Translations under genes and position numbers: made by a program
Shown: positions 1 to 63,029 of the stretch, one piece after another
How positions within the stretch are numbered: the stretch's first letter is position 1
Layout of the letters: every line of letters starts with the position of its first letter
Source of the DNA: Tubiluchus corallicola
Taxonomy: Eukaryota; Animalia; Priapulida
Direction: 5' to 3'
Assembly: GCA_030141605.1 (NCBI GenBank)
Contig: JAQGDQ010000538.1
Location: 84,807-148,806 of the forward strand
Length of the DNA: 64,000 nucleotides
The notes under the pieces: generated by a model
Database searches by the model: none
What the model saw: only the letters and a program-made list of their open reading frames with translations
What the model was told of the DNA's origin: nothing

Positions 1-544
1 TTTGTTAAAATTAATAATAAATCTTTGAAATTATAAACATAGCGCATCTCTATCTTAAACTGATGTATTTTTTTAGTCTAAATTTGTGGATGAACTCTAT
101 GATCAAAGTTGTATTTTGGACATAAAGTTTTGGTTTAGCAAACTCACTGGTGCTCGTAATATGCAAATGAGAGCAGTGGAAAGTATAAGGAAGAAATTTA
201 GTTTGTTCGTGGTTTCTGCAACGGAATTCCATCGTAAAATTCCTACTTCATTGGAACGCTAATCACTCTAATAAATAAAGAAAGATTTTCAAACAACAGT
301 GCTTATTCATACTTTATGATATTACAGATATACAGAAGACTTCTTGAGCCCGAAGACAGATCAAAATATCCAACAAGTTTCTTCAATCTATTAAACGAGT
401 ATGATAATTCACTTGTGAGAGAGAAACTTGGTGGTATGTTACTTGTTTTGTTTTGGACATAGTCCAAGGATAACACCTTAACTAACGCAATACTTATTTC
501 CAAGGTGGACCCTATTATTATTACCCCCATTTTTACTTCGATAA

Positions 545-673
545 ACCCGCACGCTTAGTTGAAGAAACAGCGATACCATTTTCCGAGTCTTTGACATGAC
601 TCGGTCGAGAGTTGAACCTACGACCTCCCAAGTGGTAAGCGAGCACATTACCATTGAGCTACGGCCATCCGGT
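545..673 (-). mobile_element. tRNA-derived SINE fragment
   Basis: Minus strand reads GGCCGTAGCTCAATGGTAA (A-box) .. GTAGGTTCAACTCTCG (B-box), followed by a non-tRNA tail accgagtcatgtcaaagac. Confidence 0.7.
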
Positions 674-835
674 ACAAATTGTTATTTCCTAGTGGAATAT
701 AATTCCTGTCCTTCGTGTGGTTTTAATTATTAATTAAAGCATAATTAAAACAAAGTAGCGTTATAATGTGTTAAATTGGTAAATAAAATATCATATATTT
801 TTATATTTATTCAGCTTAAAAATTTATTATTTTAG

Positions 836-7481
<6,646 letters not shown>

Positions 7482-10506: not shown

Positions 10507-11648
10507 CTATTCTACAAATTCAAATGATTCAACTTCAAATGTGGATCTGCTTCCACTACTGCTGTCATCGTCACTGAAAAAATAAGCATCTATTGGCTCT
10601 ATTCTTTCCTCTGGTAGCCTAAATCTATTGATTAGATTCCTAGCAGCACTGATCGTGTTCAGCTGCTCTGCTATATAGACAAACATATCATACTCAGCCA
10701 ACTGATTTCTCCAGTCCATTACAATGGAACGATGTGAATTAAGTAATATTGCACGAAACATACTCATCACCACAGTTATAGAGATCGTAGTAAAAATGGC
10801 AAAAAACACTGGTCCCAGATATCGATGGGCAAGCCCAAACGAGTGGGACTCGCTGCCAGGCACAATCATGATCACCATTGTTCTAAAAGCTAATATAAAT
10901 TCGCTGAATTCTTGCATTTTACTGCCAAACGCTATCATTCCAAAAAAAGCAAAAGGCAACAAGCCAATTATCACCATGAAACAAAAGTTAGCAGCTGGAA
11001 ACAATGATGTGGATAACATAAAAAAATGTATCAACAAGAGTTTATTAAACAATAACATATGCCAAAGCTTCAAGCAGACTAAAATAACCAGAAATGCTAG
11101 GATGTAAGTCAAAGTGAAATCCCAAAAGGCAGCTTGGTAAAAACTGGCGAAAGCAGCATCCTTTTCTGATGACTGCTTTTCCAAAAGCTTGTCAACATGC
11201 ATTGTTTTCTTTACAAACAGTGCCAGAGCAGTAATGGACAATGAAACAATACACAGTTCTATCCAGTTCCAAAAATGGGATAAATACTTGAAGCGCAGCT
11301 CATAAAGCTTACGGAGTTCCCTGAAGATGAAAATGGCCAGGAATATGCAATAAGCAATTTCACTTGTTATTAGTTTCCACTCTACCGTCTGCACATACTT
11401 GATGAGATTCAACGTGTAAATCTTATAAGTTGAGAAAACACCACCAGTTCCACTAAATTCCACTACCAAAGATACAATGCTGAACAGATTTGAGTTGGAA
11501 TTGAACAAAGTGAACTCGATTGCTAAGGCACGAGTGTAATCATCGATCCATCTTGAGTCGATGAGAGCGGCTATAAGAGCTTTGTTCTGTGTGATGTTAC
11601 GTGTTAGTTCAGCCACATAACCACCACCACTGTAGAGTGCAAGTAAAC
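10507..11648 (-). CDS. PKD1-like terminal exon: end of TOP domain, polycystin channel helices and short C-tail
   Basis: YSGGGYVAEL..WIDDYTRALAIEFTLFNSNSNLF, FWNWIE, LGPVFF and several TM segments; acceptor cacag at 11649; stop at 10507. Confidence 0.95.
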
Positions 11649-44600: not shown

Positions 44601-47600
44601 TATGGATACACCTACACAGCGAAAAACAAATGGTTCAACATGCATGATCAAAAATAAACACACAATCTCATGTTTTAAAAATTCAGATTAATAAAAAATG
44701 GTTACCACCCAAAGGCAATTGTTTTAAATATACAAATGACAATGCAGGATTAGTGTAAACGAACACATAAAAGCAGGTGTACCGTGATTTCGAATTCCAT
44801 GGATACAGCTAATTTCAATGAGTCAGCCACCTTCAGAGTCACTACTGTTTTGTAGTTTCTTTCTGGTATTCCAGGTGCCAAAAGGGTTAAAGGTAAAATT
44901 GGTTGTGCTCCATAATGCAAAAAGATTCCTGCAAGCACAATGAAAAAGGAATGTTCAGGATAACTTCAGGTAGACTGGTTGTAATACCTCTACTGGTCTC
45001 AAATGGTTTATGAATCTCTACTTAGTTTAACCAAAAAAACTTTATTTTCTCTTTAGTACATCAGCAATTTTTGCATTTTTATTAATGCATTTAATTGAAA
45101 AAATGAACAAATAATAGTAATTTTCAGAGATCGAACTATCTAAACTGTTTGATAGGCATTTATTTAAACAAATCCACATAAATGAAGACCAACGCAAAGC
45201 AGGCATTATTATGATATAAAAACATTAACTTACCTTTTGAATTTTTTTCCTCGGCCATATCCTCAGCTCCAGTTTTGTAATAAAATTCATAAGACAGCGG
45301 AGTATCCGGATCAGTATAGCGGTCACAGTGCACAGAGAATTCGTGCACCGCAGCTGTTCCTAAACACGATAACAAATTGAAATAAAGAAAGAAAATGAGT
45401 AATAATATCAGTTATGATGGACTCTCAGTATTCGAACCAGTTTCTGAGCTTATGCCTACAATATTGCAAGGGCGAATGCAAGGTGAATAAAAGGTGAATG
45501 CTTGCTACATTCGATGGAAGCTTGCCTCAGCTACTGTTTGGAGTGAACAGAAAATCTCATCAGTTAATTGCAAGTTATTTGAAAAAATCTATACGATATT
45601 CCCAGTGCCTTTACATAAATGTCGATTTGGCATGTAATTATCTTAAAAACGTAATTCAATATGACCTGCGTAATCCGTGCAATTATTCAAATATTCACAA
45701 TCTTGGCATAAAAATTTTGAGGCTATGTATTAGTCAGTTTGGCTACATGCAGTTTTTTCTTTTGTATTACAGTCAATGCTGATTAGCAACCATTTTTACC
45801 ACCACTTCATTTTTTGAATTTTCAGTTATTAGCTTGTTGTGCACCTATACCGACATATAGCTAGTGTACACTCAATATTATGTCACTGTGTATAGTGTTC
45901 AATATAATAATATAATAAATAGATGAAATTTATGCTACAAAAATTCGTCAAATTTCGATGAAACTTTAGACAATTACAAAAAGTTTGTGAATGTGTAAAT
46001 TGTATAAAAATAAACTGAAAATAGAACAGAAAAATAAACCTTTTCTCACAACGTATTTTTCTAGCAGTACAATGCAACTAATTAAGGTAAAAATTAATTC
46101 ATCCGTGATACTAAGATTGAAGCAACAAGTTCATTTTTAGTTAAAAAATTTATTTTCCTTGGTTTAATTTCCTCTAGCTTTTTTGTGACTGTGAGCGAAT
46201 TTCTGCTGAAATTACAAAAAAAGGAATTGCAGTAGCAATCCACAGGTTTGATACTGAAGGATGTGTGACAATGTATCTGATTTAGTCAGCATTATTAGTC
46301 TATTATTACAAAAGGAGTTAGCTTCGCAGTTTAACAGGAATCATAAATCAAGTTCCGAATCTGTGTAATTTTGAAATCTCATATCTGAAATGTTAAAATG
46401 AAAGTTTGAGTTGCAAGTTTGTGTTTTTATCCTGGAATCCGAGTTTAGAATGAGTCAGCAAAAATGCTCAAGCTCTAGTTCTAGTTACAAAGAAAAACAG
46501 TTAAAGAACCTTCGATCGGTGAGACAGAGCATCTGCCTTGCTGAGGTCGTTCATTCAGTACGAATTCATAAGCCGCAATGCCCGAATACGGCGAATCAGG
46601 ATCAGCTCCTTAAAATAAATTATCAGAAACATATGATTAAACACATGCATCAAGCAAGCCTTTAAAAGCTTGTGAGCAGCAGATACGAATAACTACTAAT
46701 GAGGCAATAATAAATTAATTTCCGACTTAGATGCCAAATTACAATGCTGGACCAAATCACAATTCATTTTAAATGCAATGTTTATGCAGTAATTTCTTGT
46801 GACATCTCCAGTCTAGTCTGCAAACTTTGTAGTAAGACAGAAGCTTTTCTTCATATATTTTAGAAGTAACAAAATAATTAGCACATAATTAACATACCTG
46901 TAATTTCAAACATGCAAGTATCGCCTTCTCTGAATACTTTCCTTTTCACAACCAACCGGTCATTTTTCTTTAAATTTTCAAACAAAAACGCATCACGGTC
47001 AAAATCAATTGTTTTGCCAGAGCTGCAGAACTTCAGTGACCAGTGGAACACAAAATGGTTGGTACATTTTGTGCATTCGGCTTTTAGCTCCAGCTGGTCC
47101 AACGGGTCAACTTTTGCTCCGCAGTTTAGCACACAACTAAAATTACCCAAAAAGCTCATTTCATTTCAATGCTGAATTTTCACATGTGTAATTTCCCACA
47201 TGCAAATGCCACTAACACTAAGAAAAAGAATATTTTAAGAACATTTTAGAAGCAATAAAAAGGCAAGACAATAAATCTAAAACAAAACAAAGAGTCTCTT
47301 GAGTGCTTCAGATATAATTTTAGCACAGATGATTTATCCCTGGATTTTTTAGCAATCCTGAAAGCAAAATCTCAAAGAAACTTTACTTCTGAATGTACAT
47401 GTATATACCTTATCACAATAGTGGGCCGTGGACCCTCATAAGCCACAATTACTTGTTTTGCAAATTCTATTCTTTTATCTTCCTTTGAAAATCCCAAATA
47501 CACTGTATGTGGTTGTTCCTTAGCCAAACTTTTCGACTCAATAAGAATAGATGAGTCTGTTAAACAAACACATAAAAATGTGAAAGAATGAACCAAAGTT

Positions 47601-50600
47601 AAAAAATAATAAAATTATAATTATTATTTTTTCATTTTCAGGAAATGTTTAGAATAAAATTTCGAAATGTACAGAGAAAAGAAAAGAGAGAGAGAGACAG
47701 AGAGAGAGAGAGGAGAGAGAAAAAGAAAGAAAAACAGAGAGGAGATAGATAGATAGATAGACAGATGCATTTTTAGAGATAGAGAAGGAATGCAAGTAGG
47801 CTAAAATCAGCAGTCAGATCATAAAAATCACTGTACCCGTAATTTCATGCAAAATGCATAACAACTGAAACTAGTTGACAATGTTTCTGACGTGGTCAGA
47901 AACTGAAGATTTTGCAAACAATAATTATAAAATTGAGCCTTATATATGAAGTGACGACTTTTTTTGAATGTGCCTATTTTCTGTTATTGAATTCACCTTG
48001 CTTAAATACATCGGAAGTGCATTTTACAATGAAACCTCATCATTTAACTGTTCAGCCCATCACCCATAGGTCAATGGTCAACCAATCTCGGCATAACTCA
48101 TACCATTCAATTTGTCTCCTCGACTCGCTAGAGGGGTTGCTGGTTAACTATTCTCATTGTACTATTCGATCTGCCTCATCGAGACCTTTCAATTGATATG
48201 CTACAAGGTACCATTCCTCAACACTCCATGCACTTCTGTTCACGATTCCCATTTTTCGGTTTTTGCCCCCTAGAGGAAAATTTTCCTACACAAGCATGTC
48301 CCATATTTTGTGATGTGCAAGGCTCCGACCCCACCTTTCAACATAACAAACATTGTGGCTCTAGCTCAAAAACCATGGAAGTAGATGGACCATAAAAAAA
48401 TAAATGACCTACCCGCTCCGTGATCTTTGACCCAGCAACTCGGGTCACATGTATACATAGATAACTTTGACCAGAGAGTGTACCGCATGAGTTTTGTGTC
48501 CCTAGCTCTCGGCATGTAAAAGGTCACCAATTGGGGACCCCAAATTCTGCATTTTGGCCCCTACCTCGGGTGTTTAAACCTTGTCAGTTTTTTAAGACCC
48601 CAGGTGCACATCTACTCCACAATTAGAAAAAACCGAAAGGCCTAGGAGGAGATGACAATGAAAGGAAAAACTGACCAATGCACACTGTCTCTCCCTCCTT
48701 GACCAGTGACCACCACACTGTATTTTATCCCCCGAGCAGGACCACCAATCCTGTGAGTTTGGTGATCCTAGCTTGCAAGGATAAGAGTTCTTAAGCATTA
48801 GTTGCGGAGAATAAATAATAATAATAATACTCTTAATACCAAATGAAAAACAGTAAGAGTTTGCTATAGCAAAATCTTAATAATTTCACAATAAATAACT
48901 GCAAAGCAATTTATTAATATGAAGTAAGTATAGTTGGAATGTTTCTGCATGTTTTCACATTGTTTCTTCTAACATGTGTGGGTTCATATAATGTTTTGTT
49001 TCAGATCACACTTTGCTGGAACACATTAAAGTGAGACTAGTTCAGCAAAGATTTACTATATTAACAAAAAATAGCTGAAAATTGTAAGCATCTTTAAACA
49101 GTTTAAATGCTTGTGAATTAAAACATAAGTAGAGTACAGTTAGCAAAAAACAAAAAATGTACTTTTGCTGTAATTTGCAATAAGAGCAGGTCTGTTATAA
49201 AAGCAACCTTCTCCTTCAGTAGGGACATTATACTGCATTGATCCATTGTAACAATACCAAGTATACCTATCATAAAAAAGCAAATTTTCAAAATAATGAC
49301 GATGACAATTATGATGATGATGATGATGGTAATGATGATGATGATTATGTTAGCGATAGAGATGAAAATAATGATAGTAATAACAAAAAAGTAGGCAGGA
49401 AAAGATTCTACATTGAATCCTGAGAAATATTGGTTGTGGCATCCTGAGAAATTTGGGCAGCCTGGTGAAAGGTGAAACTTTAGCCATGGCTGGCATTTCA
49501 CCTTGTTACAGTGTCACGAATAAAACTTTTGTGGAGGTGATGTTTGTAGTTCATCCAGCTTTCCTTAGCATGTCATTTTGACACGTTCTGCTTGCTAGTC
49601 TGTGTTTACATAATCGATTGCAGGTGATGCATATAAAAATGCATCTGCCAAGTAGCACAATGACAGAGAGTACACGGTCCAAACTCGCATGTAATGCTTT
49701 GGGAGGTTGGCCTGTCATCAGGATAAAAATTTCAGATAGCTATACTGCCATGGACGTAATCTGTGTCTCACCATTTGAATATATACAGACATCTGCACAG
49801 AGGAGGGCTGTGGTGGTCTTGAACACTGCCCTTTTTGTTCTTTGTATCAAAAGTGCTCTTTTAGCCAAAATTAAGAAAGGATTTACCTTTTCTTCAAATA
49901 AATTTAATGTAAAAAATTCAGACTTGTTTTCGACTATTTATTCTATTAATAATAAATTGGTATTCCAAAAGTTTGAATAACTGGAACCCATTATTTTTTC
50001 ATTACTACTATATCTTGCGTGATAAACCTTCTTCACGTTGGACATATGTCTTTATTATGAATCCCAAAACTACTCTTTTAATGCAAAGGTTTTATTTAAC
50101 CCTTTACTGGCACATAAAACAGTTTTAGGGGAGGGTTTGGCATGAGGCTTCTTTGGGGTAAAGCCCTCTACAAGATTTTTACAGAAATGCGAAGAGAGGA
50201 CATTACATATGCATGGTATAGTGATAGCTTATAAGCCGGTAAAAGCTGATTATGATTCAGATTAAAGCTGCTTATATAACTGGACATACAACAAAAATGA
50301 AAATTTATCTTGAAGTTATGCAAGTTTATATCAAGTGCCAAATAAAAATAATATAAGCATTTTTAATAAGTCAAGTGAGAATAAAGATGGTTTGGTGATT
50401 TTTTTTATTTATCAACAGCATTGTAACATATAGACTATCTGTATTGACTTGTAGATACTTGTAGAAACAAATTATATTCACGTTTTTCAAATACCAAATT
50501 CTGCATTACAGTTCAAAACTGATTTACGAGCACACTTTGTGCCAAGCAGTTTGCTGATGTATCTCAAACTTGTTTTAATGGAGAGTTATATAAAGCATTC

Positions 50601-53600
50601 ATTAGCTTTGCTAATTGCAAGAGTCTAAAACTAGCCCATGTGAACAAACACGTATTACTACAGTTAATTTATGCTTTAAAACCAAACGGTTTCTTTCTTT
50701 TAATCCTCACCTGTATGCCTCAAACTCCTTTTTTGCCTCCACATTGTTTGGATCGCGAAGATGCTGATATTTGTCATCGTAGTATTCAATTTCAGGGTCA
50801 TAAGAGTTGTTTCCACTGATTATGACATCAACATCCCACCTAATTATGTGCTTTGATCCTCCATCAATAACAGGTTTTAAGAACATATGCTTAATTATAA
50901 TCCAACCCTGAAACATTGAAATACAGTAGTGATTATATAAGAGCACTTCAGATGTTCACACAGTGTGGCATTTGGCTATTGGGTATTGATGAGGCACACC
51001 ATTCAAGTATGATAGTATACTAGCTACTGGACGGTATACTGGCTACAGGATAGTATACTAGTATGCTGGCTTACACTATAGATTAATATAGGCTGTAACC
51101 TAGGGCCCCTCAAGATTGGGGAGGTCATACTTTGCATTGCTGAATAATTCGTATAACTTAAAATAAAAGGCCTGCTTGAGGCCTTTATTTGAGACAAAGG
51201 TGCCCTTGTTTGTACCCTTTATTTGAGATAAGGCTCCCAGCTATGCAAATATTACTAAAATATATCACAAGTAAAAATAGATTCGAGATGAGTGCGAGCA
51301 AAATAGAGGGTGGTTCCATCTAAGGGCTCCCCCTAACTTCATTAGCCTAGGGACCCAAAAGCAAAATTTAATACAAGTAACTAATGCACAAGCCTAACTT
51401 GCAATCATCAGATTTGCCATACCTGCCACACTAAACATCACCAACGACAGACTTCTAAAAACTTAACTCTGCAATTTAATTTGCTAAGAAGCCCAAAATA
51501 ATATTTATGAATATTTCCAAACATTCAATTGTTTATTCTGTTACTTAATGTACAGCTGGTTGTGCATTTTGAATTATTAAAATATTGAGACAAATTTAAT
51601 GTTCAACCACACAATGAAATACGTTTGTTGTGCTGCATTTTGCTTTATCGTTTATTCCTCTTTCCATTCACGAAGAAATAAAAATTTCATCAGCTCCAGA
51701 ATTGCTTTCAAAAATCTCCACTGACAAAAACAATGATGTGTAAGACAAAAGTGCAAAAAATTTTAATTAAGGACAACTTGTTGCAATTTTTTAAATATTT
51801 CAATAGAAAACACAAGTAATGCAAAACATGTACAAGTACAACAAATAACACTAATCCTTATCAACTTGTCTACATGAATGCTCAGGAATATTTTTTTCAT
51901 TCAGTTTATGTTTTGCTGCAGTCCATAAGTTACCAAAAATGTACACAATTTTGTTTTATATATTTATGTTACATTCATAACTATCCATCTACTAAGATCA
52001 TATGACTACACATTGTTTGCTCTACAGCTACTAGTAGTGGCAGGTGTATTATTCAAGCCTGCCTCACACCTAGCAAAACAATAAAATCTTATACCAAGCT
52101 TATCTGGTAGTAGTTCTCAGCTTCGGTCTCAACTGTAAGATTATGTGTTATCAAGTATCTTCCAACTTTCAGTAGAAAGGCAGGTACATTTAATATTGAG
52201 GAAGTGGTTGAAACACGTTCAGGTATGTACTGCTCAGCGCCTTTCTCTTCAAGGTATTTAGGACTCGGCAAAAAATGTTCTTCTGTGATTTCATATATTC
52301 TCCATTTATGCTTTGCTGGTCCTTTTGAATCAGGACAGTACACATCTGATATAGCGCCAACTGAAAATTTGGATGGCATCTTATATTCTGGGGCACCTGA
52401 TGGTTTGTCACTGGCATCGTATATGAGATCTGACAAAATGCATTCAACCAATCTGTTCTTCACATGCACATTCTTAGAATAATTCCAGGAAGCATGTGCA
52501 TCTGCAATTTTTAATTCACAAACTACTTCAAGCATTGTTTCACCAGACTTAAAAAATGTATGTTGATAGGTATAATGATATGTATCGTTAAAATGTCCTG
52601 AAATCTCAAATACAAATCCATGCCTCATATTAACAGTTAAAGTAAGGCTTAATCCAGGTACAGAAAAATTAGCAAGCATGCTAACTGTATAATGTTCATT
52701 TGTGTAGTAAAATCCATCACTACTCGGCTCGATGTGTAACTCTAGACTTCGTACTTTATCTAAAATAGATAAAATTATACAATGTTACTAATTTGAAGAC
52801 ATCACAATTTCTACTTTAAAATAGTTAAAATACAAATCAAATGTAGGCAAACTGCAAGAGCAAATTTGCAAAAAAAGATCTGTAATTTAGTATGAAGTAA
52901 AGATCTGTTTATTTCTAAAGAAATAAAATCAAGAATAAGCATGGTGTAAAATTAATGATACTTTTATGACTTATGCTTTGGGAATTATGGTGATAAAATA
53001 ATAAGAGATTCTTTTTAGAGATAATTATTTATCAGTTTCTTCAAATAAAAAAAAACATGTAATTTTGGTAATTTTTACTTTGACAATGTCTGAAAGGTTA
53101 ATACTACTAGGATAAACCTAAATTTTCAAATACTCAAACTTCGAAAATTACTTAGATAAAATATACCCAAATGCAATTGAAAGACAAGGATATTATCGGC
53201 CTGAATGATAATGTTTATATAACGATAAACCTGTTAGGAAGAATGTAAAATATTTAAAAAAAATTTAATAAAACTTCATTTAAAATATAACTGGCTGCCT
53301 TGAACTTCAGCAGATAAGTTTTTCAAATTAGTACAAAAGCAAATATAAAATTTTAACAACTGTAGGTAGTGATATTCATGATAATCAGAGATTATGTCAA
53401 ATTTACAATTCATCTACTTTTTTCCAATACTGTTGACACCTAATTTAAGTCAAAATTACAACTGCCTCACAAACACGCATAAAATTACATCGTCTCAAAA
53501 TGATCAAAAACATCAGTCAGCCCGCAAAATAATTGAAACAGAAAACTCGACAGAATAGATTCTGTGGCAACGGATTATTAACATATAAATTTTAGATAAT

Positions 53601-55553
53601 TTTGCCTAACTTTTAATGACTATTCCTAGTTTTGTCAACAACGATTTCAATGATGGTTACATAGCTTGACAAATTTACTGCAAGAGTGCTCCTTCATCAT
53701 ATGTCCCAGTATGGTCTGTCCGAAATACAATACAGGGACAACACAAATAAAAATGTGTAGTTACTGGTAAAAAAGCAAGAAATTTTAGTCAGAATATTTA
53801 TTTCAGCATAAAAATGAAAGAACAGATGATTCTGATGCTCTACTTGTAAGTTTAAGCGTGAAGTACTTTAGAAAAAGCAGTTCGATTTGAACACGCTTTT
53901 GATTTAACCATCGGATGTTGCGCAGAGCAGTTCAGACTTTTTCAAATTAAAATATACAATTATTTTTAATAAACTACGATTATCTCGAAATGCAAAGCTA
54001 TTTTGGCAGTGAAAAATTAGGTTGGGTTTACTGAAAAAGCTACTTCGTGGCAAAATCATCTATTTTCGGGCAAACACATTTTTTCGGGGGCAATCACCAA
54101 ATTTTTCAGGCACCGGCCACACAATGGAAAAAATAAAATAATATTTTTCATAAAGGGAAATTTCAAAATTTCTCCATGCCCCAAATGAAGTGCTCGAAAT
54201 TTGCCCATTTTTTGATTATGGAACGAGGTGAGGCAATTCCCAAATCGAAATTAACCTGCACTTTTTCCCGATTGGCACCTTTCGGGCAAAAGTGGCTCAG
54301 CCTGCTGGAAAAATAGGCCTGCACGCCTAAGCCGATGATGACTATAATAGACTTGTGGCGTGTCTGTTTGTGAATGGTTTATCAGGATTTTGATGAATTC
54401 AAATAAAGGCATTAATAGGTGATTTCCTTCAAAAAGATCGTGCCATTGTTACGGTTGCAATTGAAATGGCCATCGAGACGGCACATGACATTTGGGCAAG
54501 GCCATTTTGGCATGGAACATTTAGTCAAGGTACATTTGGCATTGGGACACATGGGCACATGACATTTGCACACAAATACAGCTTTTTTAATGATTCACTA
54601 TTTTTAAAACCACTAAAATGACTCTGCACTTTTTCATTTTCACTTTTAGTATTGCATGTAGTTTTTAAAATAAACGAAGCAAAAGAAAATATCGCATGTT
54701 TAGATTAATATTTTATTAACATATGATGGCTTTTCATTTCAAAAATGTCTAACCCATCACAAAAATAGTAAATAACAGAAATGTGAGTCACAAAAAAAAT
54801 TACTCATACCAAAACCTAGCATTAGAGCAACTAGCGCTGCCAATCCAGCTAGTATTATAATTATCATAATTACTATCATACTGCCTGGAGGCTTATATAG
54901 TATGCTTTAGCAGGAACCAACAGAAAAAATGTGGTGCACACTAGTTTACGTATTGGCTGCCGTCTCAAAAATGACTGGATCAATTAAAAAGGCAAATTAC
55001 TACTTAAAGTCTATATGATTATCAATATGAAGATTACCAAAAATTGTAAACTTTTTGATGCATCTTTTGCTAAATACATGATGAATGTGCAGTCAGCAGC
55101 ACAGCAGCACAATAGGTTTACAAATGCTAGATTAGTTTTCAGCTTTAGTTACACGATTGTACGAACAAGATTATTTCTTTTCTTACAAAAATTTAAAAAG
55201 TACCTGTCAACTATGGGCAGAGCATTCTCATAATTTTAACCTGCTAGACAGTGTAATTTATAGGGCATCACAGAATTTCATAACGTATACTTGCATGATG
55301 GAATCGCTCTACTTAAGTAGCCAGTCAAGCATAACTATGAGACCATAACTATGTAACTGTTAGTGCAACTTGCTTAATAGGGGAAATATTTGCAAACTGC
55401 ATGAATTACCTTCGGTACAGTTAACCCCAATATATTTAGCGTCGCAAGTACATGTATAATTTCCTCCTGGTAAATATTTGCACCTGCCATGAACACATGG
55501 ATTAGGTAAGCAAGCATCTAGAATTACCAAAAATAATAACTGTTAAAATCAAG

Positions 55554-55586
<33 letters not shown>

Positions 55587-58500
55587 CTTCTGTTGCTCTA
55601 AACATCTACTGAAGACATAGAGCCTCTATCCTTTATTAGAGCACTCCACTGTTTCCTGTCTGCAGCTAAAATTTTCTATTCCTGTGATGCTACTGTTAGG
55701 TTTGGTTCCACCTTTTGTAAATCTTTATTAATTCTTGATATCCAAGTTGTTTTTGTTTGCCTGGAGGTCGTTTAGTAGGTTTCAGTGTCTCGTTTAATGT
55801 TAATCGTATTGGTATAGTTTTTGGCAATCTCATGAAATGTCCTACCCATCTTAGTCTTCTGATTCTGATTTTAGTGCTCCACTATTCGGTTATTCAACTG
55901 CTTATTTGAAATGATATATGGCCATTTTACTTTTAAGATTTTTCTGAGCAGGCCTCTGTGAAATACATTTATTTCTGCTTCCTGCGTTTCAGTCTAGCCC
56001 GACATTTCACTGTCGTACATGAAGGTACTAGTTACATATTCTTGATATTTTTGCACAAAGTTTCCAACACTATTGATTTTACGTCCAACATCAACTTGGC
56101 CATTAACTTTTATCTATTACTTCATTTTACATTATCCAAATCTGGTAAGCGCTTGAAAAATAATGAAGAAAATTAAAGATGCCTTCTAACTTTGGTTAAT
56201 TAAACAACTAACTATGAAACGTGAAATAATAAATAAAATGTGACAACACATTAGCCCATATTTCAAAGGAAGGTTTGCATTTCGTTTTAATGAAACTAGT
56301 TTATTAGAATTTTTGCACACATTTGAAAGTAATGATAACTGCAAATATATAGCATTGATAAGTGAACTAAAAAAACAAACAAAAACAAACAAGAAATGTT
56401 GAAAATGCACTAACCTCTAACAGTTACTGATGCAATTTTAGATCTATATGTTTCCCTGGCGACAATATTTTCAAGTTCACAATGCCATTCAGCTGCATCC
56501 TCCATCTGTGCATTTATAATGGCAAGATTTCCATTTCCGGTATTTGTATAATTTGGATCATGCCAAGAGTACCTTGGAAAAGACTTTGGATCATTTGAAA
56601 CCAACGTGCTATTTCTATACCAACGAAGCTAATAATATAAAAAAATTGTGCAGCAGTCAATATCATACATAAAAAACTGATATCATATTGATTCAAAGTT
56701 ACATGCTTAAGCCATAGTAGTGCATTTATGCAAGCAACGTTTTAATGTGCATTTTGGAATAACTGTGAACAACAATGAATTCCTGCCAGGGCCGGTTTTA
56801 CAAAGTCGTCACTAAGTTAACGCCGTCATTATTACATTCACTTAACTATTAATAACGATGCAGTTAAATTAGTGACTGCTTTATGAAACCGGGCCCAGCT
56901 TTCCAAATTAAGATCAATTAGAGTTAAAATGAAAAAATTGTTTCGTTTTATAATAGTTCAAATAATATTACATTTAATTCTACAACAATAGGTTGCACGC
57001 GCCATCTTTGTAATTTGCAAATTATTACAGAACTAAGAATTCTCATGTTCTATGACAAAGAATCATCTCTTTAACAGTATACCAATACGACAATTTTATT
57101 GACATTTTCTCTTGCATTGACATTTCACCTATGTAGCATTAATACAACTGTAGTATAATAGTAGCATTTATAGCATTCATATTAAATCATTTACTGTTAT
57201 TGTATTAGTGGTTGAAAAATTCATTCACAATGAAGAAACAATGCTAGATTAAAAAATGTAACTTGCCCCTACTTAAAATTTTCATAATTAAATGCACTGC
57301 TTAAATTAACTAAGAACATATCTTTTGTACTTCATAAAATGAGCAAGTAAACACAAAATTGTAAAACTTATTATCAATGTGTCACACATTATCAGCTGAA
57401 TGTTTTATTCCCAACAACACCCAAGTTACCATAGCTGCAAGTAAGGAATAGTGCTTCAGCTTTACAAGAAAACAAACTTAAGACAAAGCAAACTGAAGCT
57501 TGCTTAGGAAGTGCAGCACACCTTAACAATATAAACTGTCTGCTTGCTCGCAACAACCATTTGCCAAAATCATACAAAACACAAAAACACATTTTTGCAA
57601 ATGAGAAACAATGCAGCTTAACATAAAGAATTAGAGCGCGTGCATGTATTCATACCATCCCAACTCATTTTCCTGGAAACAGATTCACTAAATCAAGGAA
57701 TGTTAAAAGAATAATATATTGTGATATAGTCACTTCCTAAAAACAGATAATGTCACATTCTATGCAAAATGCCCATGTACACTGTATTTCATAATTGCAT
57801 GAATTGTGTGCTACTATTACACAACTCGACTTGACTTTTTTGTACTGATATCACCCAATGTTAGCTACAGAATTAAGCTTTAACATTCTTAAGTATGAAA
57901 AAGAATGTGAATCCTTACAGAAAATTGTTCATTCGGTGGAAAAAAGACTTTGCAGTGCATGATGAAGCCTTCGCCTAGAGGCACTTCTTGACTTTTAGGT
58001 TGAATGATTATAGCCCACTCTAAAATTAGAAAAAAACATCTTCTCAAGCATGTAACATAATCCCGTGGATTTTATTTCAATCACACGGCAGGCAAACTGC
58101 TCAACAGATTGTGCAGAAAGATACAGTTTGGTAAAATCTGAAAATCCTGTAAAATATGGAATGTCAGAACCTTGTCGACTCATCTCGACCAATGGGGATC
58201 AACGTCAGGAGAAATGGCCTAAAATAAAATAATATTCTGCAGACTCTTATGCTGTCATGGGCTCCATACATAAGGTTTGGTAATAATAGTATAGATTTTA
58301 TTGTATGAGTGAATCGATGTATATGTAGATTTCCACACCTAGAGCCTCTGCTTTACCAAATCTCAAACAATTCATACACCAAACGAAATGTGTCCCTAAT
58401 ATTTGTCACTGATGAGTATTTTCAAATCAAAAATGAAATAATGTTACTTAACCATTTTTGCCTGATTTTGGCAAAACCTATCCTCTTTACCTGGTAAGCC

Positions 58501-61322
58501 TGGTTTCAGCCTACTATATTTACATCGCACCAAGGCATGTATATATTTATCACTCCAAGGCTCCGATGCTTTCATACGGTCTTAGAAAATATTCTATATT
58601 TTATGGAAACAAGAATAGAACAACAGGGAGACTACTCAGACTAAACTAAAAACCCACTTTAACAGTAGTATCAATAGGGAAACGGATCTGTTTGATTTCA
58701 AATTCCACTCAGGGACTTTTTACTAAGTGACCAATAAGGATGCATAGTGATTAATGTTATGCCTTTGATTCTTCTTTGTCATGTAGTTGCTAGTTCTCTG
58801 TTTTTTTATTATATAAATAGTAGACAGCAGTCATTCAGGTAATAGGTAGAGTCGAAAATTTGTAGAAACTGAAAATAATGTTTACAAATTATTGATTTAT
58901 TAATATTTCAGACCAAGCACAAGATAGTTTTGCAGGGCCTTTGCACTGGTACTTTTATGTCTCAGATTGATGTGGTTTGGAGCTAAAAGAACAATAACAC
59001 TGCTATACTCATTCATGACACGTCTATTTAGCAAAAGTGACAAAAGCGCGTGATAAGTAGCTCACCTGAAACATCCACTATCACTTCTATTGACTTCATG
59101 TGCGTCGGATCACTTGTTCCATTTAAAAAGATTTGGCAATACCACTTGCCATTGTCTTCAATATCAGCATTCTGAACGTCCAGTGAATGATTTACTCTAT
59201 CTGAAAGCTCTACCGTAGTCAAATTGTACCTCGAATTTTGATCTACATCAACTTCTGTTCTGTCTTTGAACCACTTAACCTCAATGTCCTAACATCCAAT
59301 AAGAAATAGCAAAAAATCTACCAAATCTGGGTAAATTGGGTAGGACACCTTTACGAGGTGGAAGAAAAGTAGTGGTCACAGTATGTGAGAGATTGACAGA
59401 GATTGACAGTAGCGTCTCATCTCAGAAGATTATATATCCTTAATGATGAGCTAGATTCTTGTACAACAACGCCTACTACATTAAGTTGTGGTACTGCCAC
59501 AAAGTACTTGATCCGGGAATCCATAGTATGTAATTTTTTCATCTTGTGTTCTACATATTTTTTCACCAGTAAAACTGGATAACAGAAGCCAGTACAAAAA
59601 ATATGGGAAAACATAAAATAGTAGGCATGAAAAATGAAATCTCAGTAATGTCAGGGAAATTATGACACAGCAATGGATAGCACAGGTATAAATATAGATG
59701 TAAGACTGAGCAGATCAATCGTTTCATTATTAAACATAATTTTGGTCGAACACATTTACCTCAGAAGGAAGGCTTTTTGGGCGATAATAGTGACAAGCCA
59801 AAGAGAATGAGTCACCCCTGAGTAATTCAGAATGCTCCTTTGGATCTTGAAGTATACGTATGCCTAAAAATTTACAAACAGCCCAAGTATAACAGACAGC
59901 TTAGTTACACAACAAGAATAAACAAGAAAATGATTTGTTTTTTAATACTATCAGTATAGACGAGTGTACCTTGTTTTACAAACTAATTTTCAGCCCTGTT
60001 TTCAAGCAGCCTATTCTCAATGTGCCAAGTGATTTGAGAAAACTGTAGTTAAAACTGTAGAAAAAAAACTAAATCCTGCACTTCAGATTCAGATTTCAGA
60101 TACAGAATGGCTGGTTCTACATAGCCATGAATTTATATCGTACATAATGGACAACTGTCGGAAGAACACTATGAATATTGTTTAAATTCACAGTTCTCAC
60201 GCGGCATTTAAAGCACATAATGTCATTTGTAATTCACATAGACCTGCCACTGTACTGTTGCTTAAATTTCTGACATTTCATTGTGCTACTTTCTGCAACA
60301 GTGATATATGTAACTTGATAAGGTGCAAAAGTCTCATATATGTAGTCATCAAAAATTATTGCACTTCAAAGCCCAAACACATAGCTGGTCTTTACAAGCT
60401 GCCATGCTGAGTTATACGATATAACTTAGCCACACCTACTTTCCGAAAATTATTCTTAAATGTATAGTAAAAAGTATATGAAATGGACCCTAACCATCAA
60501 CTTGGTTAAGTCACACAGTAGAAATTATGAAAATATGAAAACTGTTATTTCAAATTTATTAAAAGTGATTAGTGTAATGAATTAAAAGAATAAAAAGAGA
60601 GCCAAAATGGGTAAAAATGAAACCTGAAACTTTAATCAAAATGACCAGAGTGTAATAAAAATTGCATACAGAAAATGCTGCATATTGCAATTGTATACAG
60701 TGAAAAAATATTAATAGGGTGCTAAAGATTTTTCTTCTAGCTTATAAATACGGAATTCTTTACAATTAATTGTAAACTTGTCTATTTATTTAAAATGAAA
60801 AATTATCACTTACAAGTTACTGGATGGCTCAAGTTTTCTAAATGCACTCATTAGAGATCTCTTTAATATACATCATTAAAAGAACTCAAATGCAAATCTG
60901 GCACAGTAAAAAAGAACAAACTTAAATAGAGTCAAATAACAGCACTTACATATTCCATATTTCAAAGTTAATAAACAAAAATAAATATATTATACCTTTC
61001 AATTGAATAGTTTTGTATACATACATGTTCTCTTGTTCATTTTACGCATAATGTCTTTTCTGAACTTTTTCAAATTATCCACTCTAACAATGTCTATACT
61101 TAATGACCAAAAGCTACATGTCTACGCAATAGCTTTTCATTAATTTGACTCCTTTGACCAAATGACCCATCTAAGTGACTAAGATATGTCCAAAAAATGT
61201 TTTCACTGTGCAGTACCTGACGAAGCATAGTGCCAATTGTCCACCATATTCAACGAGGTACACTTTTTTACTTGACAGAGCAGTATAGCAATAGATACAC
61301 TTAACAACCAGAAGTTTGTCAT
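10507..61322 (-). CDS. Polycystin-1-like (PKD1L/PKDREJ family) 11-TM protein, long isoform, about 2834 aa, 42 coding exons
   Basis: Exons in transcript order: 61217-61322, 59760-59863, 59066-59288, 57919-58019, 56415-56628, 55410-55517, 52095-52759, 50711-50907, 49163-49266, 47409-47556, 46898-47136, 46510-46608, 45234-45359, 44783-44928, 44488-44611, 44260-44354, 43842-43961, 43176-43267, 40974-41043, 39539-39689, 37156-37256, 36613-36757, 36388-36530, 33980-34928, 32536-32683, 31300-31402, 28849-28969, 28594-28697, 26188-26418, 23827-23947, 22811-22970, 21980-22118, 20868-20975, 20485-20620, 19681-19792, 19299-19386, 18086-18702, 14941-15120, 14568-14643, 13992-14157, 12106-12288, 10507-11648. 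All junctions are GT-AG and phase-compatible; the sum is 8505 nt, divisible by 3. Family motifs: REJ, GPS (CVYW..GC..HCVCYHMTTFA), PLAT, HLWLSIFLRPPHSHFTRVQR, YSGGGY, WIDDYTRA. The join of the Ig/EGF exons to the REJ part is inferred from phase. Confidence 0.85.
12106..18702 (-). CDS. PKD1-like exons for the cytoplasmic loop, TM4-TM6 and start of TOP domain (18086-18702, 14941-15120, 14568-14643, 13992-14157, 12106-12288)
   Basis: LPWWCVYIGWVLV..LYGLKYGYKTSIDWLMS..DPVQVI; PPDESKLIEARRERKRQRKMRRIIKE; MWDYINNTL..VPRLRQLR, typical of PKD1L/PKDREJ. Confidence 0.92.
15242..15911. mobile_element. piggyBac-like non-autonomous element (MITE)
   Basis: TTAA|ctccttcaggac .. gtcctgaaggag|TTAA: 12-bp TIR with TTAA target duplication, no long ORF. 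Confidence 0.75.
19012..19090 (+). mobile_element. Non-LTR retrotransposon reverse-transcriptase fragment
   Basis: Encodes EIKTGTPQGSVIGPTLLLLLNDI, resembling the GVPQGS.LGP..ND RT motif. Confidence 0.65.
19299..23947 (-). CDS. PKD1-like exons for the canonical intracellular PLAT/LH2 domain and TM2-TM3
   Basis: YLIITYTGIRKGAATTATVTVVIKG..SLGDLTSIVIWHDNSGKHPSWFLRKVVITD..FLCNKWLAVD, then GHLWLSIFLRPPHSHFTRVQRSSCALSLLLTMMLGNIMFYG. Confidence 0.92.
23270..23620. repeat. AT-rich palindromic region with two inverted repeats and a short tandem duplication
   Basis: 31-bp IR 23281-23311/23347-23377; 19-bp IR 23405-23423/23448-23466; the segment ggtgaaaattaattttga..aaattat recurs. Confidence 0.85.
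25080..25175 (+). mobile_element. Penelope-like element GIY-YIG endonuclease fragment
   Basis: NVVQKYTCQTCNALYIGKNSRHLHR resembles the Penelope VVY..C..C...YIG.T.R.L..R motif. Confidence 0.65.
26188..28697 (-). CDS. PKD1-like GPS motif and TM1 exons (28594-28697, 26188-26418)
   Basis: VNFTVGFYNSRCVYWDEKNEEFRSEGCL / LGHLTTEKRMHCVCYHMTTFAGSFLVTPN..DNPVTVLLVVLIWIIYFVLLVYSYRKD. Confidence 0.93.
27994..28230. repeat. Left arm of an imperfect inverted repeat of about 235 bp
   Basis: cattgtcattggacaaagccatgccatacctgct..ttgtagtttgcactaa..aataattccaatttgctga is the reverse complement of 29113-29342. Confidence 0.85.
28849..32683 (-). CDS. Three exons encoding an extra PLAT/LH2 domain N-terminal to the GPS (32536-32683, 31300-31402, 28849-28969)
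   Basis: Spliced: VTYRIGTVTADVTHSGTSAVVYVVIHGSHGTTREMILDSFLDNHERARVDWFEKKNVAVGTILNVTIWEDNSGLAPGWLLEKLIIELGYLVYTCPCMRWF. This matches the PLAT consensus; the exons are absent from the ORF track. Confidence 0.85.
29113..29342. repeat. Right arm of an imperfect inverted repeat of about 235 bp
   Basis: tcagcaaattggaattatt..ttagtgcaaactacaacagcaggtatggcatggctgtgtccaatgacaatg. Confidence 0.85.
31865..31924. repeat. Imperfect (GT)n microsatellite
   Basis: tgtgtgtgtgcgtgtg run. Confidence 0.9.
33980..34928 (-). CDS. 949-nt PKD1-like exon: GAIN strands followed by a Cys-rich/poly-Asp module
   Basis: Phase-0 acceptor continues LK|VVFKLHQRPTLADFE; 32 Cys counted; D8 run; phase-1 donor G|GTAATG. Confidence 0.85.
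36388..52759 (-). CDS. PKD1-like exons encoding PKD-like, REJ and N-terminal GAIN regions
   Basis: ISGNNSYDPE, YTWYC, CVLNCGAKVDP, NERPQQGRCSVSP-GTAAVHEFSVHC..DPDTPLSYEF, LAPG..VTLKVADS (REJ) and NPYFW (GAIN of PKD1L proteins). Confidence 0.88.
37770..38270. mobile_element. hAT-superfamily (Charlie-like) MITE
   Basis: 16-bp TIR caggggtgtgcaaatt / aatttgcacacccctg; 8-bp TSD atctaagg (37762-37769, 38271-38278); subterminal GCGGCCCG repeats. Confidence 0.93.
39781..39986. repeat. Tandem duplication (39781-39889, 39890-39986) with a 12-bp deletion in copy 2
   Basis: attagttagtgaagcctatttg..gggtacctgt occurs twice. Confidence 0.93.
47680..47765. repeat. (GA)n/(GATA)n simple repeat
   Basis: agagagagag..gatagatagatag. 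Confidence 0.85.
49293..49385. repeat. Degenerate intronic (GAT)n trinucleotide repeat
   Basis: gatgatgatgatggtaatgatgatgat run next to the acceptor of exon 49163-49266. Confidence 0.8.
53193..54884 (-). CDS. Candidate alternative TM exon (54810-54884) and terminal exon (53193-53230) of a short Ig-Ig-EGF-TM isoform
   Basis: ctccag|GC AGT ATG..TTT G|gtatga encodes GSMIVIMIIIILAGLAALVALMLGF; ttttacattcttcctaacag|GT TTA..CGA TAA encodes GLSLYKHYHSGR*; AATAAA on - strand at 52908-52913. Confidence 0.6.
55410..55517 (-). CDS. EGF-like domain exon (phase 1-1)
   Basis: DACLPNPCVHGRCKYLPGGNYTCTCDAKYIGVNCTE: six Cys in EGF spacing, GT-AG flanks. Confidence 0.92.
55557..55985 (-). mobile_element. Decayed 3' end of an RTE-like LINE with (GAA)n tail
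   Basis: Minus strand, frameshifted: FHRGLLRKILKVKWPYIISN..KIRIRRLRWVGHFMRLP..AADRKQW; ends in (GAA)n at 55557-55590. Confidence 0.75.
56415..59863 (-). CDS. Two immunoglobulin domains, each split over two exons (59760-59863 + 59066-59288; 57919-58019 + 56415-56628)
   Basis: Ig1: ILQDPKE..GDSFSLAC..VKWFKD..LDVQNADIEDNGKWYC. Ig2: IIQPKSQEVPLGEGFIMHC..LRWYRN..LAIINAQMEDAAEWHC. Confidence 0.9.
56790..56895. mobile_element. Short PIF/Harbinger-like MITE
   Basis: Imperfect IR ggccggttttacaaagtcgtcactaagttaac / gttaaattagtgactgctttatgaaaccgggcc, flanked by a CAG duplication. Confidence 0.65.
61217..61322 (-). CDS. First coding exon with predicted signal peptide
   Basis: ATG at 61322: MTNFWLLSVSIAILLCQVKKCTSLNMVDNWHYASS. 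There is an in-frame stop upstream, a phase-1 donor matching the Ig1 acceptor, and a possible 5'-UTR acceptor near 61343. Confidence 0.75.
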
Positions 61323-63029
61323 TGTCAACACTAAACTTTAATCTAGAACAAAATAACATATTTTTCACTTGCAAGTTTGCAACATCAGATTTTTTTACAA
61401 TAAACAAAAAAATACATGATTTTTAAATATGGATATACTAACTATACTGTCACAGAATAGTTAAAGTTTTTTTTACCAGGACTTTAATAAAACTCATATA
61501 AAAATAAGAAAAAATAAAATAAAATAAAGGAAGAATTAATTGCCTGGGATCACAAGTAAACTTAGTACTGTACTGTAAACCGGAAAAAGTGCAAGCTAAA
61601 TTTTGGGAATCCGGCTTCAAAGCCTTGTTTATGAAGTGAAATTTGGCATTCCAGAAATGTGTAAAAACCAGTGCCTTCTCTAATAATCCTAGTATTGCCA
61701 CATTGCCAGCTGAATCTACCACAAAAGACTAGGGCAGATAAAATGAAAGCTATGTAACAACTAATACTAGCATTTCCTTGTTACACTTATGTGTAGTTGC
61801 ATAAATATATAAAAAAGTAAAAAAGAGGAAAATTGAGATTTCCTTTATAAAACTATAAAACTTGTTCTATAAAACTTTTGGCTTTACAAATTGAACGCGT
61901 ACTATCGAACAAAGCTACAAAAAGCCAATAGTAACTTGAATCTTGAATACTTTAATAATTTATGCATGTAAAAAATTTTGCATCTGGCCTTCTTAGCAAA
62001 CTTTGCAAATGTTTCCAGCAAATATAAACTTTATCGTTTACAGTGAATTACATGAGATACAAATGCTACTAAAATGCATTTGTTTGGAACTTTTCACTAG
62101 CACTTCACTGGCAAGTTCACAAATTTATGAACAGTTTAGAGCCAATAGTAATGTTAACAGTGCTATAATGACATGCATCCACTGCAGCTACTAGGCACAT
62201 AATAAGTTATGTATAACTTCATTTAAAATATGTCACCATCTAAGTGAAAAATGTTATCAACTTATGAAATTTTCGCTATAAGACTGAGTAGATTATTAGT
62301 CACAGTCTAGTTAATACAAGCAGAATAAATACAAGTAATACACAGTATAGAAACAATGGAGTAGCTAATAGGGCAGCAAATGCTCCATGGAGCACATTTT
62401 TCAAAATTGGCATCTTTTCAACAACCTGCCTCATTAATTTATTTGACAAACCTGCCTCGATTTACTTGCATTTACACAACTCATTTGTCAAGGTTGAGCA
62501 TGTCTGTTGTGGCATAGACGAAAATATAATTGCTTCATTTGCCACAGCACCTTCTTGGTACGTGTCACAACGCTTTTTATGTGCTTGCTTCCGCTAACTT
62601 TAGAATCTAGCTTCACCCCTGATTTTAAGTTTTTAGCAGCTGAAAGTGAAAACACACTCACTGTTGTGCTGTGCAACAGTGAACAGAATAAATTATTTTG
62701 AAAAAGTGCAAACAATAATAACTCCTGTGCTTGAAACAGAAATGATGATATATGTAGATGATATCTAGTAATGTATATACTATTAAATGACTGGTTAAAA
62801 ATTGTAGAAAAACTGAAGAATTAGAAAGACTAAAGGTCAGTGTTAAAAACACAGTCAATGCAAACAATGATGACTAGAAAGAAAAGAATTTTTCCACTAA
62901 AAGAAAAACTTACCAAAGGGAAAATTCATGAAACACAAAGCTATACATAAAGATACTTATAAGCAGTTAACAGAAAAGTGAAAAGAGAACAACAAATTTA
63001 AAATAAGCTATATTAACTCCTTAGCAAAT

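What the first reader, a model, noticed from the sequence alone, without database searches (positions are those of the whole stretch)
52908..55517. Hidden TM and stop exons: one gene may encode both a giant polycystin and a small Ig-Ig-EGF-TM receptor
Seen: the phase-1 intron between the EGF exon (donor 55410) and the first PKD/REJ exon (acceptor 52759) contains a 75-nt phase 1-1 exon encoding a 23-aa hydrophobic helix (MIVIMIIIILAGLAALVALMLGF). It also contains a strong acceptor leading to GLSLYKHYHSGR-stop (53230-53193) and an AATAAA at 52913-52908. SP-Ig-Ig-EGF-TM-tail sums to 969 nt (322 aa). The EGF donor is equally compatible with the 52759 acceptor, and no other signal-peptide exon is evident in the 430 bp after the stop. 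Inference: alternative last-exon choice gives a single-pass, neuregulin-like Ig/EGF protein or an 11-TM channel subunit sharing the same ligand-binding tip, i.e. a decoy or partner plus receptor, or a gene fusion caught in progress.
Basis: partly seen in the sequence, partly recalled or inferred. Interest (0 to 1): 0.82.

Follow-up and report, generated by a model that had tools for sequence, protein, structure and literature searches.

The report
Polycystin gene with hidden membrane-anchor exon
An animal polycystin-1-like gene has an extra exon for a membrane helix right behind its antibody-like and EGF tip, so it likely makes both a predicted 2,821-residue channel subunit and a short single-pass surface protein with the same tip, though no RNA was available to show either splice.

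Summary
Signal peptide-Ig-Ig-EGF-TM-tail gives 969 nt/322 aa. Skipping the TM exon gives an open 42-exon, 2,821-aa PKD1-like protein with REJ, GPS, PLAT and channel domains. The 75-nt TM exon is hard to get by chance: 1 of 5,000 simulated introns, 0 of 40 real introns; one microsatellite look-alike in about 119 kb. The stop exon and AATAAA are chance-level: 7 of 16 rival acceptors score as well, and AATAAA is expected in 433 nt 47% of the time. No signal-peptide exon lies after the stop, so the polycystin likely shares the 5' exons. The EGF fails the ErbB-ligand splice criterion, so 'neuregulin-like' is not supported. Neither junction could be tested. Best reading (0.5): one gene, alternative 3' ends, like the 1TM isoforms of adhesion GPCRs but dropping REJ/GAIN. 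My look-ups found no earlier scan report of this.

The parts
61217..61342 (-). Signal-peptide exon: acceptor 61342, ATG 61322, 35 codons, phase-1 donor
   Evidence: donor 8.0 bits; acceptor 8.4 bits; signal peptide inferred from hydrophobic core, no SignalP available
59760..59863 (-). Ig domain 1, first half-exon (phase 1-0)
   Evidence: no Pfam hit alone
59066..59288 (-). Ig domain 1, second half-exon (phase 0-1)
   Evidence: Pfam I-set E 1.4e-5
57919..58019 (-). Ig domain 2, first half-exon (phase 1-0)
   Evidence: Ig_3 E 0.13, weak; frame
56415..56628 (-). Ig domain 2, second half-exon (phase 0-1)
   Evidence: Pfam V-set E 3.7e-4
55410..55517 (-). EGF exon, whole module in one phase 1-1 exon, Cys spacing 4-4-9-1-8; donor 9.3 bits
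   Evidence: Pfam EGF E 3.2e-5
54892..54899 (-). TATA-like 8-mer 20 nt upstream of the TM-exon Met; probably chance (1.06 per kb in introns)
54810..54884 (-). TM exon, 75 nt, phase 1-1, 23-residue hydrophobic helix; Met at 54879 and 54867; acceptor 6.6 bits, donor 5.1 bits
   Evidence: one contig of run X1 spans it with 0 differences
54712..54717 (-). AATAAA about 40 nt after the stop reached if the TM donor is read through: an alternative end for the short form
53193..53230 (-).
52908..52913 (-). AATAAA (chance-level on its own)
52095..52759 (-). First PKD/REJ exon, phase 1-0, acceptor 9.0 bits
   Evidence: ESM Atlas REJ clusters 0.93, weak recognition; no Pfam hit
36388..50907 (-). REJ and following (presumed GAIN) exons, 16 exons
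   Evidence: Pfam REJ on 5 of 5 exon frames tested here, E 5.8e-7 to 3.1e-3; exon 49266-49163 found; donor 37156 is weak
33980..34928 (-). 949-nt Cys-rich insert exon
   Evidence: no family found
28849..32683 (-). Extra PLAT-like domain (3 exons) before the GPS, so predicted extracellular
   Evidence: Pfam PLAT E 0.0046 on the first exon; tblastn
26188..28697 (-). GPS (H-M-T at the cleavage position) and TM1
   Evidence: Pfam GPS E 0.01 and 0.097 on the two half-exons
10507..23947 (-). Intracellular PLAT, remaining TM segments, polycystin domain and channel; stop at 10507
   Evidence: PLAT E 0.0099, PKD_channel E 7.6e-35, Polycystin_dom E 1.8e-21

Best explanation
This is likely one PKD1-like gene with two alternative 3' ends: splicing the EGF exon straight to the first PKD/REJ exon would give a 2,821-residue polycystin subunit, and splicing it to the TM exon and ending in the same intron would give a roughly 320-residue single-pass protein with the same Ig-Ig-EGF tip. 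Shown: the exons, phases, open frames, domain hits, the non-random TM exon, and the lack of another signal-peptide exon. Inferred: that both splices occur; that the short form ends by intronic polyadenylation (at 53230/52913 or at another of several possible ends); that the long form self-cleaves at its GPS and joins PKD2-type subunits as other PKD1 proteins do (family knowledge; PMC1934368 section 6 read, PMC11448475 passages read). The short form has a tail of about 12 residues with no signalling module, so it most likely acts as a tethered ligand-binding or adhesion partner that tunes the long form, as Cirl 1TM does for Cirl 7TM; that step is analogy only.
For: Both forms have open frames with all introns GT-AG. 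EGF donor (9.26 bits, 32 of 40 true donors lower) and 52759 acceptor (8.99, 29 of 40 lower) are strong, the TM sites are middling (6.63, 16 of 40; 5.14, 9 of 40), a pattern that fits a skippable exon. TM exon null: 1 of 5,000 simulated 2,650-nt introns, 0 of 40 real introns in host phase; 1 locus in about 119 kb x 3 phases. It sits just behind a complete ectodomain, and flanking charge with the tail (-1 outside, +2 inside) fits a type I protein. No acceptor between EGF and TM exons gives more than 8 codons, and no AATAAA lies there, so the Ig-Ig-EGF unit cannot end before the TM exon. None of 41 phase-1 donors between the TM exon and 52759 carries a Met-led hydrophobic leader other than the TM exon's own extension. 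Precedents: EGF on SpREJ1 and single-pass PKD1-family members (PMC1934368, section 6); 1TM isoforms from GAIN-receptor genes (bioRxiv 10.1101/2023.01.11.521585, abstract and section 5; PMC11039983, passages).
Against: No junction is shown. The stop exon and AATAAA are chance-level and the tail's codon use is intron-like. The TM exon's codon use is no better than introns (51% of intron windows as high); its first half is ATA/ATT-rich, and a microsatellite at 49461-49267 makes an even more hydrophobic false exon. A Met 5 nt into the exon with a phase-1 donor is also what a signal-peptide exon looks like. The stalk between EGF and helix is only 4 residues. Including the TM exon in the long form would put REJ in the cytosol, so skipping must be strict. 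The splice matrix was trained on 40+40 sites of my own unverified model, which needs one weak donor (37156, 1.4 bits).
Confidence: 0.5

Rival explanations
1. Only the long Ig-Ig-EGF-polycystin is made; the TM exon is a chance or decayed sequence (possibly a relic of an old fusion) that is not spliced.
For: Tail acceptor and AATAAA at chance level; TM and tail codon use intron-like; AT-rich low-complexity DNA does make false TM exons here; the intron holds repeats.
Against: An in-phase exon this hydrophobic arose in 1 of 5,000 simulations and 0 of 40 other introns, and it lies at the place where it yields a sensible type I protein; its second half is Ala/Gly/Leu-rich rather than microsatellite-like.
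Confidence: 0.2
2. Dual-use exon: the hydrophobic exon is the membrane anchor of a small Ig-Ig-EGF protein and, from an internal promoter or a trans-spliced leader, the signal peptide of a polycystin that lacks the Ig-Ig-EGF tip (54879-54810 joined to 52759, 2,559 aa).
For: Open frame of 2,559 aa; Met 5 nt after the acceptor, as the true signal exon has its ATG 20 nt after a strong acceptor; phase-1 donor; TATA-like 8-mer at 54899; a strong orphan donor at 55204 could end a non-coding first exon; acidic downstream flank (-1.5) allows C-out topology. Internal starts are known in human PKD1L2 (PMC1934368, passage) and adhesion GPCRs (PMC11039983, passages).
Against: 23 unbroken hydrophobic residues with no charged n-region or polar c-region fit a TM helix better than a cleavable signal (general knowledge, no predictor run); the acceptor is in phase with the EGF donor; the TATA-like motif occurs at 1.06 per kb and would leave almost no 5' UTR; needs two overlapping units.
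Confidence: 0.15
3. Two separate tandem genes: an Ig-Ig-EGF-TM receptor ending near 52890 (or 54700), and a polycystin that starts on its own just upstream of 52759, without a recognisable signal peptide.
For: The short form is a complete gene model with a stop and AATAAA about 150 nt before 52759; sea urchin SpREJ5 has no detectable signal sequence (PMC1934368, section 6).
Against: No usable first exon in 54809-52760; exon 52759 is open from its acceptor with the first in-frame Met 26 codons in and two out-of-frame ATGs before it; a 1,400-residue ectodomain without a leader would be hard to export (general knowledge).
Confidence: 0.1
4. The TM exon is included in the long transcript (EGF-TM-PKD, 2,846 aa), giving a 12-pass protein.
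For: Open frame; an extra N-terminal helix is reported for ADGRG7 (PMC11039983, abstract and passages).
Against: After a cleaved signal peptide the helix would stop transfer and leave REJ/GPS in the cytosol, inverting the family topology; acidic C-flank.
Confidence: 0.05

Closest known systems
PKD1-family polycystins (human PKD1L1-3/PKDREJ; sea urchin SpREJ1-10; PMC1934368, section 6 and passages read)
   Same: REJ, GPS before TM1, PLAT after TM1, about 11 TM, C-terminal channel domain; variable N-terminal tip; one EGF in SpREJ1; single-pass members SpREJ1, 8, 9; long and short PKD1L2.
   Different: Ig-Ig-EGF tip is not among the domains listed there; single-pass SpREJs are separate genes that keep REJ/GPS; here an extra PLAT-like domain and a Cys-rich exon precede the GPS.
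Drosophila Cirl/latrophilin 1TM and 7TM isoforms (bioRxiv 10.1101/2023.01.11.521585, abstract and section 5 read)
   Same: One gene for a GAIN/GPS receptor makes a multi-pass and a single-pass protein with the same ectodomain; there the two bind and tune mechanosensation.
   Different: Cirl 1TM arises by intron retention and keeps the N terminus on a single helix; here a dedicated TM exon upstream of REJ/GAIN would keep only the tip. Adhesion GPCR, not polycystin; shown in vivo there, not here.
Membrane-anchored and soluble N-terminal isoforms of human adhesion GPCRs (PMC11039983, passages read)
   Same: Alternative 3' exons and internal promoters commonly give anchored N termini and N-truncated receptors.
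   Different: Anchored forms there come mainly from truncations within the 7TM domain, not from a separate TM exon.
Neuregulins / vein (ErbB ligands; PMC1618406, passages read)
   Same: EGF module next to a TM helix; Ig plus EGF layout (recalled for neuregulin-1/2 and vein).
   Different: No intron between Cys4 and Cys5; Cys1-Cys2 spacing 4 and no Arg two residues before the last Cys (ErbB-ligand spacing of 7 and that Arg are recalled).

Membership tests
PKD1-like polycystin (long form) | REJ domain | tested here: met
   Pfam REJ on 5 of 5 exon frames, 2 above the curated cut-off on their own
PKD1-like polycystin (long form) | GPS motif just before TM1 | tested here: met
   GPS E 0.01 and 0.097 on two half-exons, each under the cut-off; H-M-T at the site (consensus recalled); tblastn to P0012
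PKD1-like polycystin (long form) | PLAT after TM1 | tested here: met
   PLAT E 0.0099 on exon 22970-22811; tblastn E 2e-9 to P0012
PKD1-like polycystin (long form) | 11 TM segments, last six a polycystin channel | tested here: met
   12 hydrophobic segments after the leader, one marginal; PKD_channel E 7.6e-35
PKD1-like polycystin (long form) | N-terminal signal peptide joined to REJ in one mRNA | tested here: inconclusive
   In-frame route exists; junction not shown
PKD1-like polycystin (long form) | GPS autoproteolysis and assembly with PKD2 | not testable with these tools
   needs protein work
ErbB ligand (neuregulin/vein) for the short form | Splice site between Cys4 and Cys5 of the EGF module (PMC1618406) | tested here: not met
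   Whole EGF module in exon 55517-55410, in an intron-rich gene; the paper notes intron-less exceptions in Drosophila
ErbB ligand (neuregulin/vein) for the short form | EGF module close to a TM segment (PMC1618406) | tested here: met
   4 residues between last Cys and helix in the predicted short form
ErbB ligand (neuregulin/vein) for the short form | Cys1-x7-Cys2 spacing and Arg before the last Cys (recalled) | tested here: not met
   Spacing 4-4-9-1-8; no Arg
Alternative-last-exon single-pass isoform (Cirl 1TM type) | Both transcripts made from one promoter | not testable with these tools
   no spliced RNA of this organism was available to lay
Alternative-last-exon single-pass isoform (Cirl 1TM type) | In-frame TM segment followed by stop and poly(A) signal inside an intron | tested here: inconclusive
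   TM exon above chance; terminal exon and AATAAA at chance level

The most novel reading that the evidence does not exclude
One 75-nt exon does two jobs: it anchors a small Ig-Ig-EGF receptor in the membrane in one mRNA and is the signal peptide of the polycystin in another, while a third splice skips it and grafts the Ig-Ig-EGF tip onto the polycystin. The locus would be a snapshot of how PKD1 proteins gain new tips: by read-through capture of an upstream receptor gene whose anchor exon and the polycystin's leader exon are the same piece of DNA.
Probability: 0.15. Interest if true: 0.7.

Novelty: new variant of a known kind. Interest (0 to 1): 0.42.

Why it matters
PKD1-family proteins differ mostly in their outer tips, and the ligands and partners of most are unknown. 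A gene that makes both the full channel subunit and a membrane-tethered copy of only its tip would give a built-in decoy or partner, and a small, easily expressed probe for finding the ligand. It would extend the 1TM-isoform strategy shown for adhesion GPCRs to polycystins by a different route (a dedicated TM exon). My searches listed no paper on such an isoform or on an Ig-Ig-EGF tip in a polycystin, but the library is limited to open papers and I saw no figures or supplements, where domain cartoons would be. Alternative last exons that anchor or shorten receptors are common, and the claim rests on DNA alone, so interest is moderate.

Tried and rejected
No RNA holder listed. Run X1 covers introns and shows no splice joints, so it behaves as DNA and may be the source sample; X2 laid only on repeats; neither speaks to splicing. 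No whole genome is held. Homolog searches gave nothing on the junction: exon 52759 had 0 hits of 491 candidates among 388-2000-aa proteins; Ig1 half-exon 0 of 12; the channel exon gave 10 hits of 6,562 candidates at 26-31% identity, mostly vertebrate PKD2; these searches exclude proteins over 2,000 aa, so full-length relatives could not appear. HMMER over 1.84 billion representatives gave 1 hit, a Cys-repeat protein that I judge spurious. PDB sequences: 0 hits. Metagenome contigs: 0 of 248 pattern matches confirmed. AlphaFold of exon 52759 alone had pLDDT 31.5 and was not used. ESM Atlas: REJ clusters for exon 52759 (weak recognition), no hit for the Cys-rich exon, generic I-set clusters for Ig1. 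Codon-usage test has little power (true mean 0.09, intron mean -0.13). Branch-point motif scan uninformative (17 of 40 true acceptors have it; TM, tail and 52759 acceptors do not). The first null run (0 of 1,500) used wrong phases for downstream introns and a wrong donor in training and was redone. Rejected: signal exon 52942-52834 (donor -0.24 bits); leader from the strong donor 54256 (not hydrophobic, inside a repeat); start by trans-splicing at 52759 (no leader, upstream out-of-frame ATGs); neuregulin membership. An earlier count said 8 or more rival acceptors; the count is 7.
Full report
What is there. The minus strand holds a large intron-rich animal gene (33% GC). No whole genome is held; earlier scan notes on the same genome call it an invertebrate, likely not an arthropod (not checked by me). 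From 5' to 3': a signal-peptide exon (ATG 61322, donor 61217), two Ig domains each split over two exons, one EGF exon (55517-55410), a 2,650-nt phase-1 intron, and then a PKD1-like body. Pfam gives I-set E 1.4e-5, V-set E 3.7e-4, EGF E 3.2e-5 and REJ on 5 of 5 downstream exon frames tested; GPS and PLAT weakly on single exons, PKD_channel E 7.6e-35. After adding exon 49266-49163 and using a weak donor at 37156, the path that joins 55410 to 52759 has 42 exons, 8,466 nt, 2,821 aa and no internal stop, with 12 hydrophobic segments after the leader, one marginal.

Is the TM exon more than chance? I trained splice matrices on 40 acceptors and 40 donors of the gene model, leaving out the sites in question. 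TM acceptor 6.63 bits (16 of 40 true sites lower), TM donor 5.14 (9 of 40), EGF donor 9.26 (32 of 40), 52759 acceptor 8.99 (29 of 40). An in-phase, stop-free AG..GT exon with even weak sites and a 19-residue hydropathy mean of 3.2 or more arose in 1 of 5,000 simulated 2,650-nt introns (3 at 3.0, 78 at 2.5, 519 at 2.0), and in 0 of 40 other real introns in their own phase even at 2.0 (4 of 40 in any phase). Real DNA has microsatellites that simulations miss: over about 119 kb of non-exon DNA on both strands and three phases there were 13 loci at 2.0, 3 at 2.5 and 1 at 3.0, an ATC/ATT repeat at 49461-49267. That is about 0.7% for one 2.65-kb intron in one phase. The exon also lies where it completes a type I protein. 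Against it: its first half is ATA/ATT-rich and its codon use is no better than intron (51% of intron windows as high; weak test). I put it at about 0.8 that the exon is used. One contig of run X1 spans it with no difference, so the sequence is not a lone assembly slip, though X1 may be the source sample.

The stop exon and poly(A) signal are not above chance. The 53230 acceptor scores 5.65 (13 of 40 true sites lower). Of the 16 other acceptors of 3 bits or more between the TM donor and 52759, 7 score as well or better, and all 16 stop within 33 codons. AATAAA occurs 59 times in 39,700 nt of the other introns, so 433 nt holds one 47% of the time; this intron has three (54717, 53802, 52913). Reading through the TM donor gives a stop 40 nt before the first of these. 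The tail has intron-like codons (2% of true windows as low), though it gives a fitting charge (+2 inside, -1 outside). So a short form can end in several ways, and 322 aa is only one.

One gene or two? The Ig-Ig-EGF unit cannot end before the TM exon: the five acceptors of 2 bits or more in 55380-54885 give at most 8 codons and no AATAAA lies there. The polycystin needs a phase-1 exon with a leader. Among ATG-led phase-1 exons with a hydrophobic core from 64000 to 52760, the convincing ones are 61322 and the TM exon; three others lie upstream in or over the Ig introns and exons (57624, 56666, 56251) and look poor. None of 41 phase-1 donors of 1 bit or more in 54809-52800 has a Met-led hydrophobic leader other than the TM exon's own extension, and none of the 6 after the stop has a Met. 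Two fully separate genes are thus unlikely (0.1), though SpREJ5 shows a family member with no signal found (PMC1934368, section 6 read). For it: Met 5 nt after the acceptor, a phase-1 donor, a TATA-like 8-mer at 54899 (1.06 per kb by chance). Against it: 23 unbroken hydrophobic residues fit a TM helix better, and the acceptor is in phase with the EGF donor. I give it 0.15.

What could not be tested. No RNA holder was listed, and the two runs laid show no splice joint; this says nothing either way. No relative of the junction exons was found, and the word-indexed searches leave out proteins over 2,000 aa.

How it most likely works (0.5). One promoter upstream of 61342. Where the strong EGF donor pairs with the strong 52759 acceptor, the weaker TM exon is skipped and a PKD1-like subunit is made with an Ig-Ig-EGF tip; by family knowledge it would be cut at the GPS (H-M-T present) and work with PKD2-type subunits (PMC1934368 section 6; PMC11448475 passages). 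Where the TM exon is chosen and the transcript is cut and polyadenylated in the intron, a roughly 320-aa type I protein with the same tip, 7 N-glycosylation sequons and almost no tail is made. With no signalling tail it would hold, present or compete for whatever the tip binds, or pair with the long form. Exons and frames are shown; splicing, polyadenylation, cleavage and function are inferred.

Comparison. The long form meets the PKD1-family features that I could test. PKD1 tips vary and one EGF is known in SpREJ1; single-pass SpREJ1, 8 and 9 are separate genes that keep REJ/GPS (PMC1934368, section 6 and passages read; figure not seen). The closest working model is Cirl 1TM, made by intron retention, which binds Cirl 7TM and tunes mechanosensation (bioRxiv 10.1101/2023.01.11.521585, abstract and section 5 read; supplements closed). 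Anchored N termini are frequent among human adhesion GPCR transcripts, mainly by truncation within the 7TM domain (PMC11039983, passages read). The short form is not an ErbB ligand by the criterion of PMC1618406 (passages read): no intron between Cys4 and Cys5; spacing 4-4-9-1-8. PMC6294549 (passages read) gave no domain list. Searches listed no paper on an Ig-Ig-EGF polycystin or a TM-exon isoform of one (listings only); figures and supplements that I could not see may hold such architectures.

Verdict. The anatomy is real and the TM exon is likely functional, but the stop exon, poly(A) site and the neuregulin label are weaker than claimed, and no junction is shown. New variant of a known kind; interest 0.42.

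Noticed in passing
window 32683-28849 (-), 3 exons: A second PLAT-like domain lies before the GPS and TM1, so it is predicted extracellular; PMC1934368 (section 6) says PLAT is always intracellular in this family. Pfam PLAT E 0.0046 on the first exon, tblastn to a PLAT region.
   Followed up: partly
window 34928-33980 (-): A 949-nt exon encoding a 317-aa Cys-rich, partly acidic insert between REJ and GPS; no Pfam or Atlas match.
   Followed up: partly
window 37256-37059 (-): The frame-keeping donor (37156) is weak (1.4 bits), while a strong donor at 37059 (8.0-8.8 bits) extends the exon by a mildly hydrophobic 32 codons and shifts the frame: a possible second truncated form, or a missed small exon (candidate 37017-36932).
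   Followed up: partly
window 49461-49267 (-): An ATC/ATT microsatellite reads as poly-Ile and mimics a TM exon just before the real exon 49266.
   Followed up: yes
window about 238-4582 (+): Exons of another gene on the plus strand, converging on the polycystin's 3' end; one frame resembles an alpha2-delta/CACHD1-type Cache protein (recalled resemblance; no meaningful Pfam hit).
   Followed up: no
window 55549-56100, 56795-56889, 53986-54380: High-copy repeats inside the introns around the EGF and TM exons; the first looks like a retroelement fragment next to a (GAA)n run (class not tested).
   Followed up: no
window 61342 (-): The signal-peptide exon has a strong acceptor 20 nt before its ATG, so a non-coding first exon or a trans-spliced leader lies upstream; not located.
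   Followed up: no
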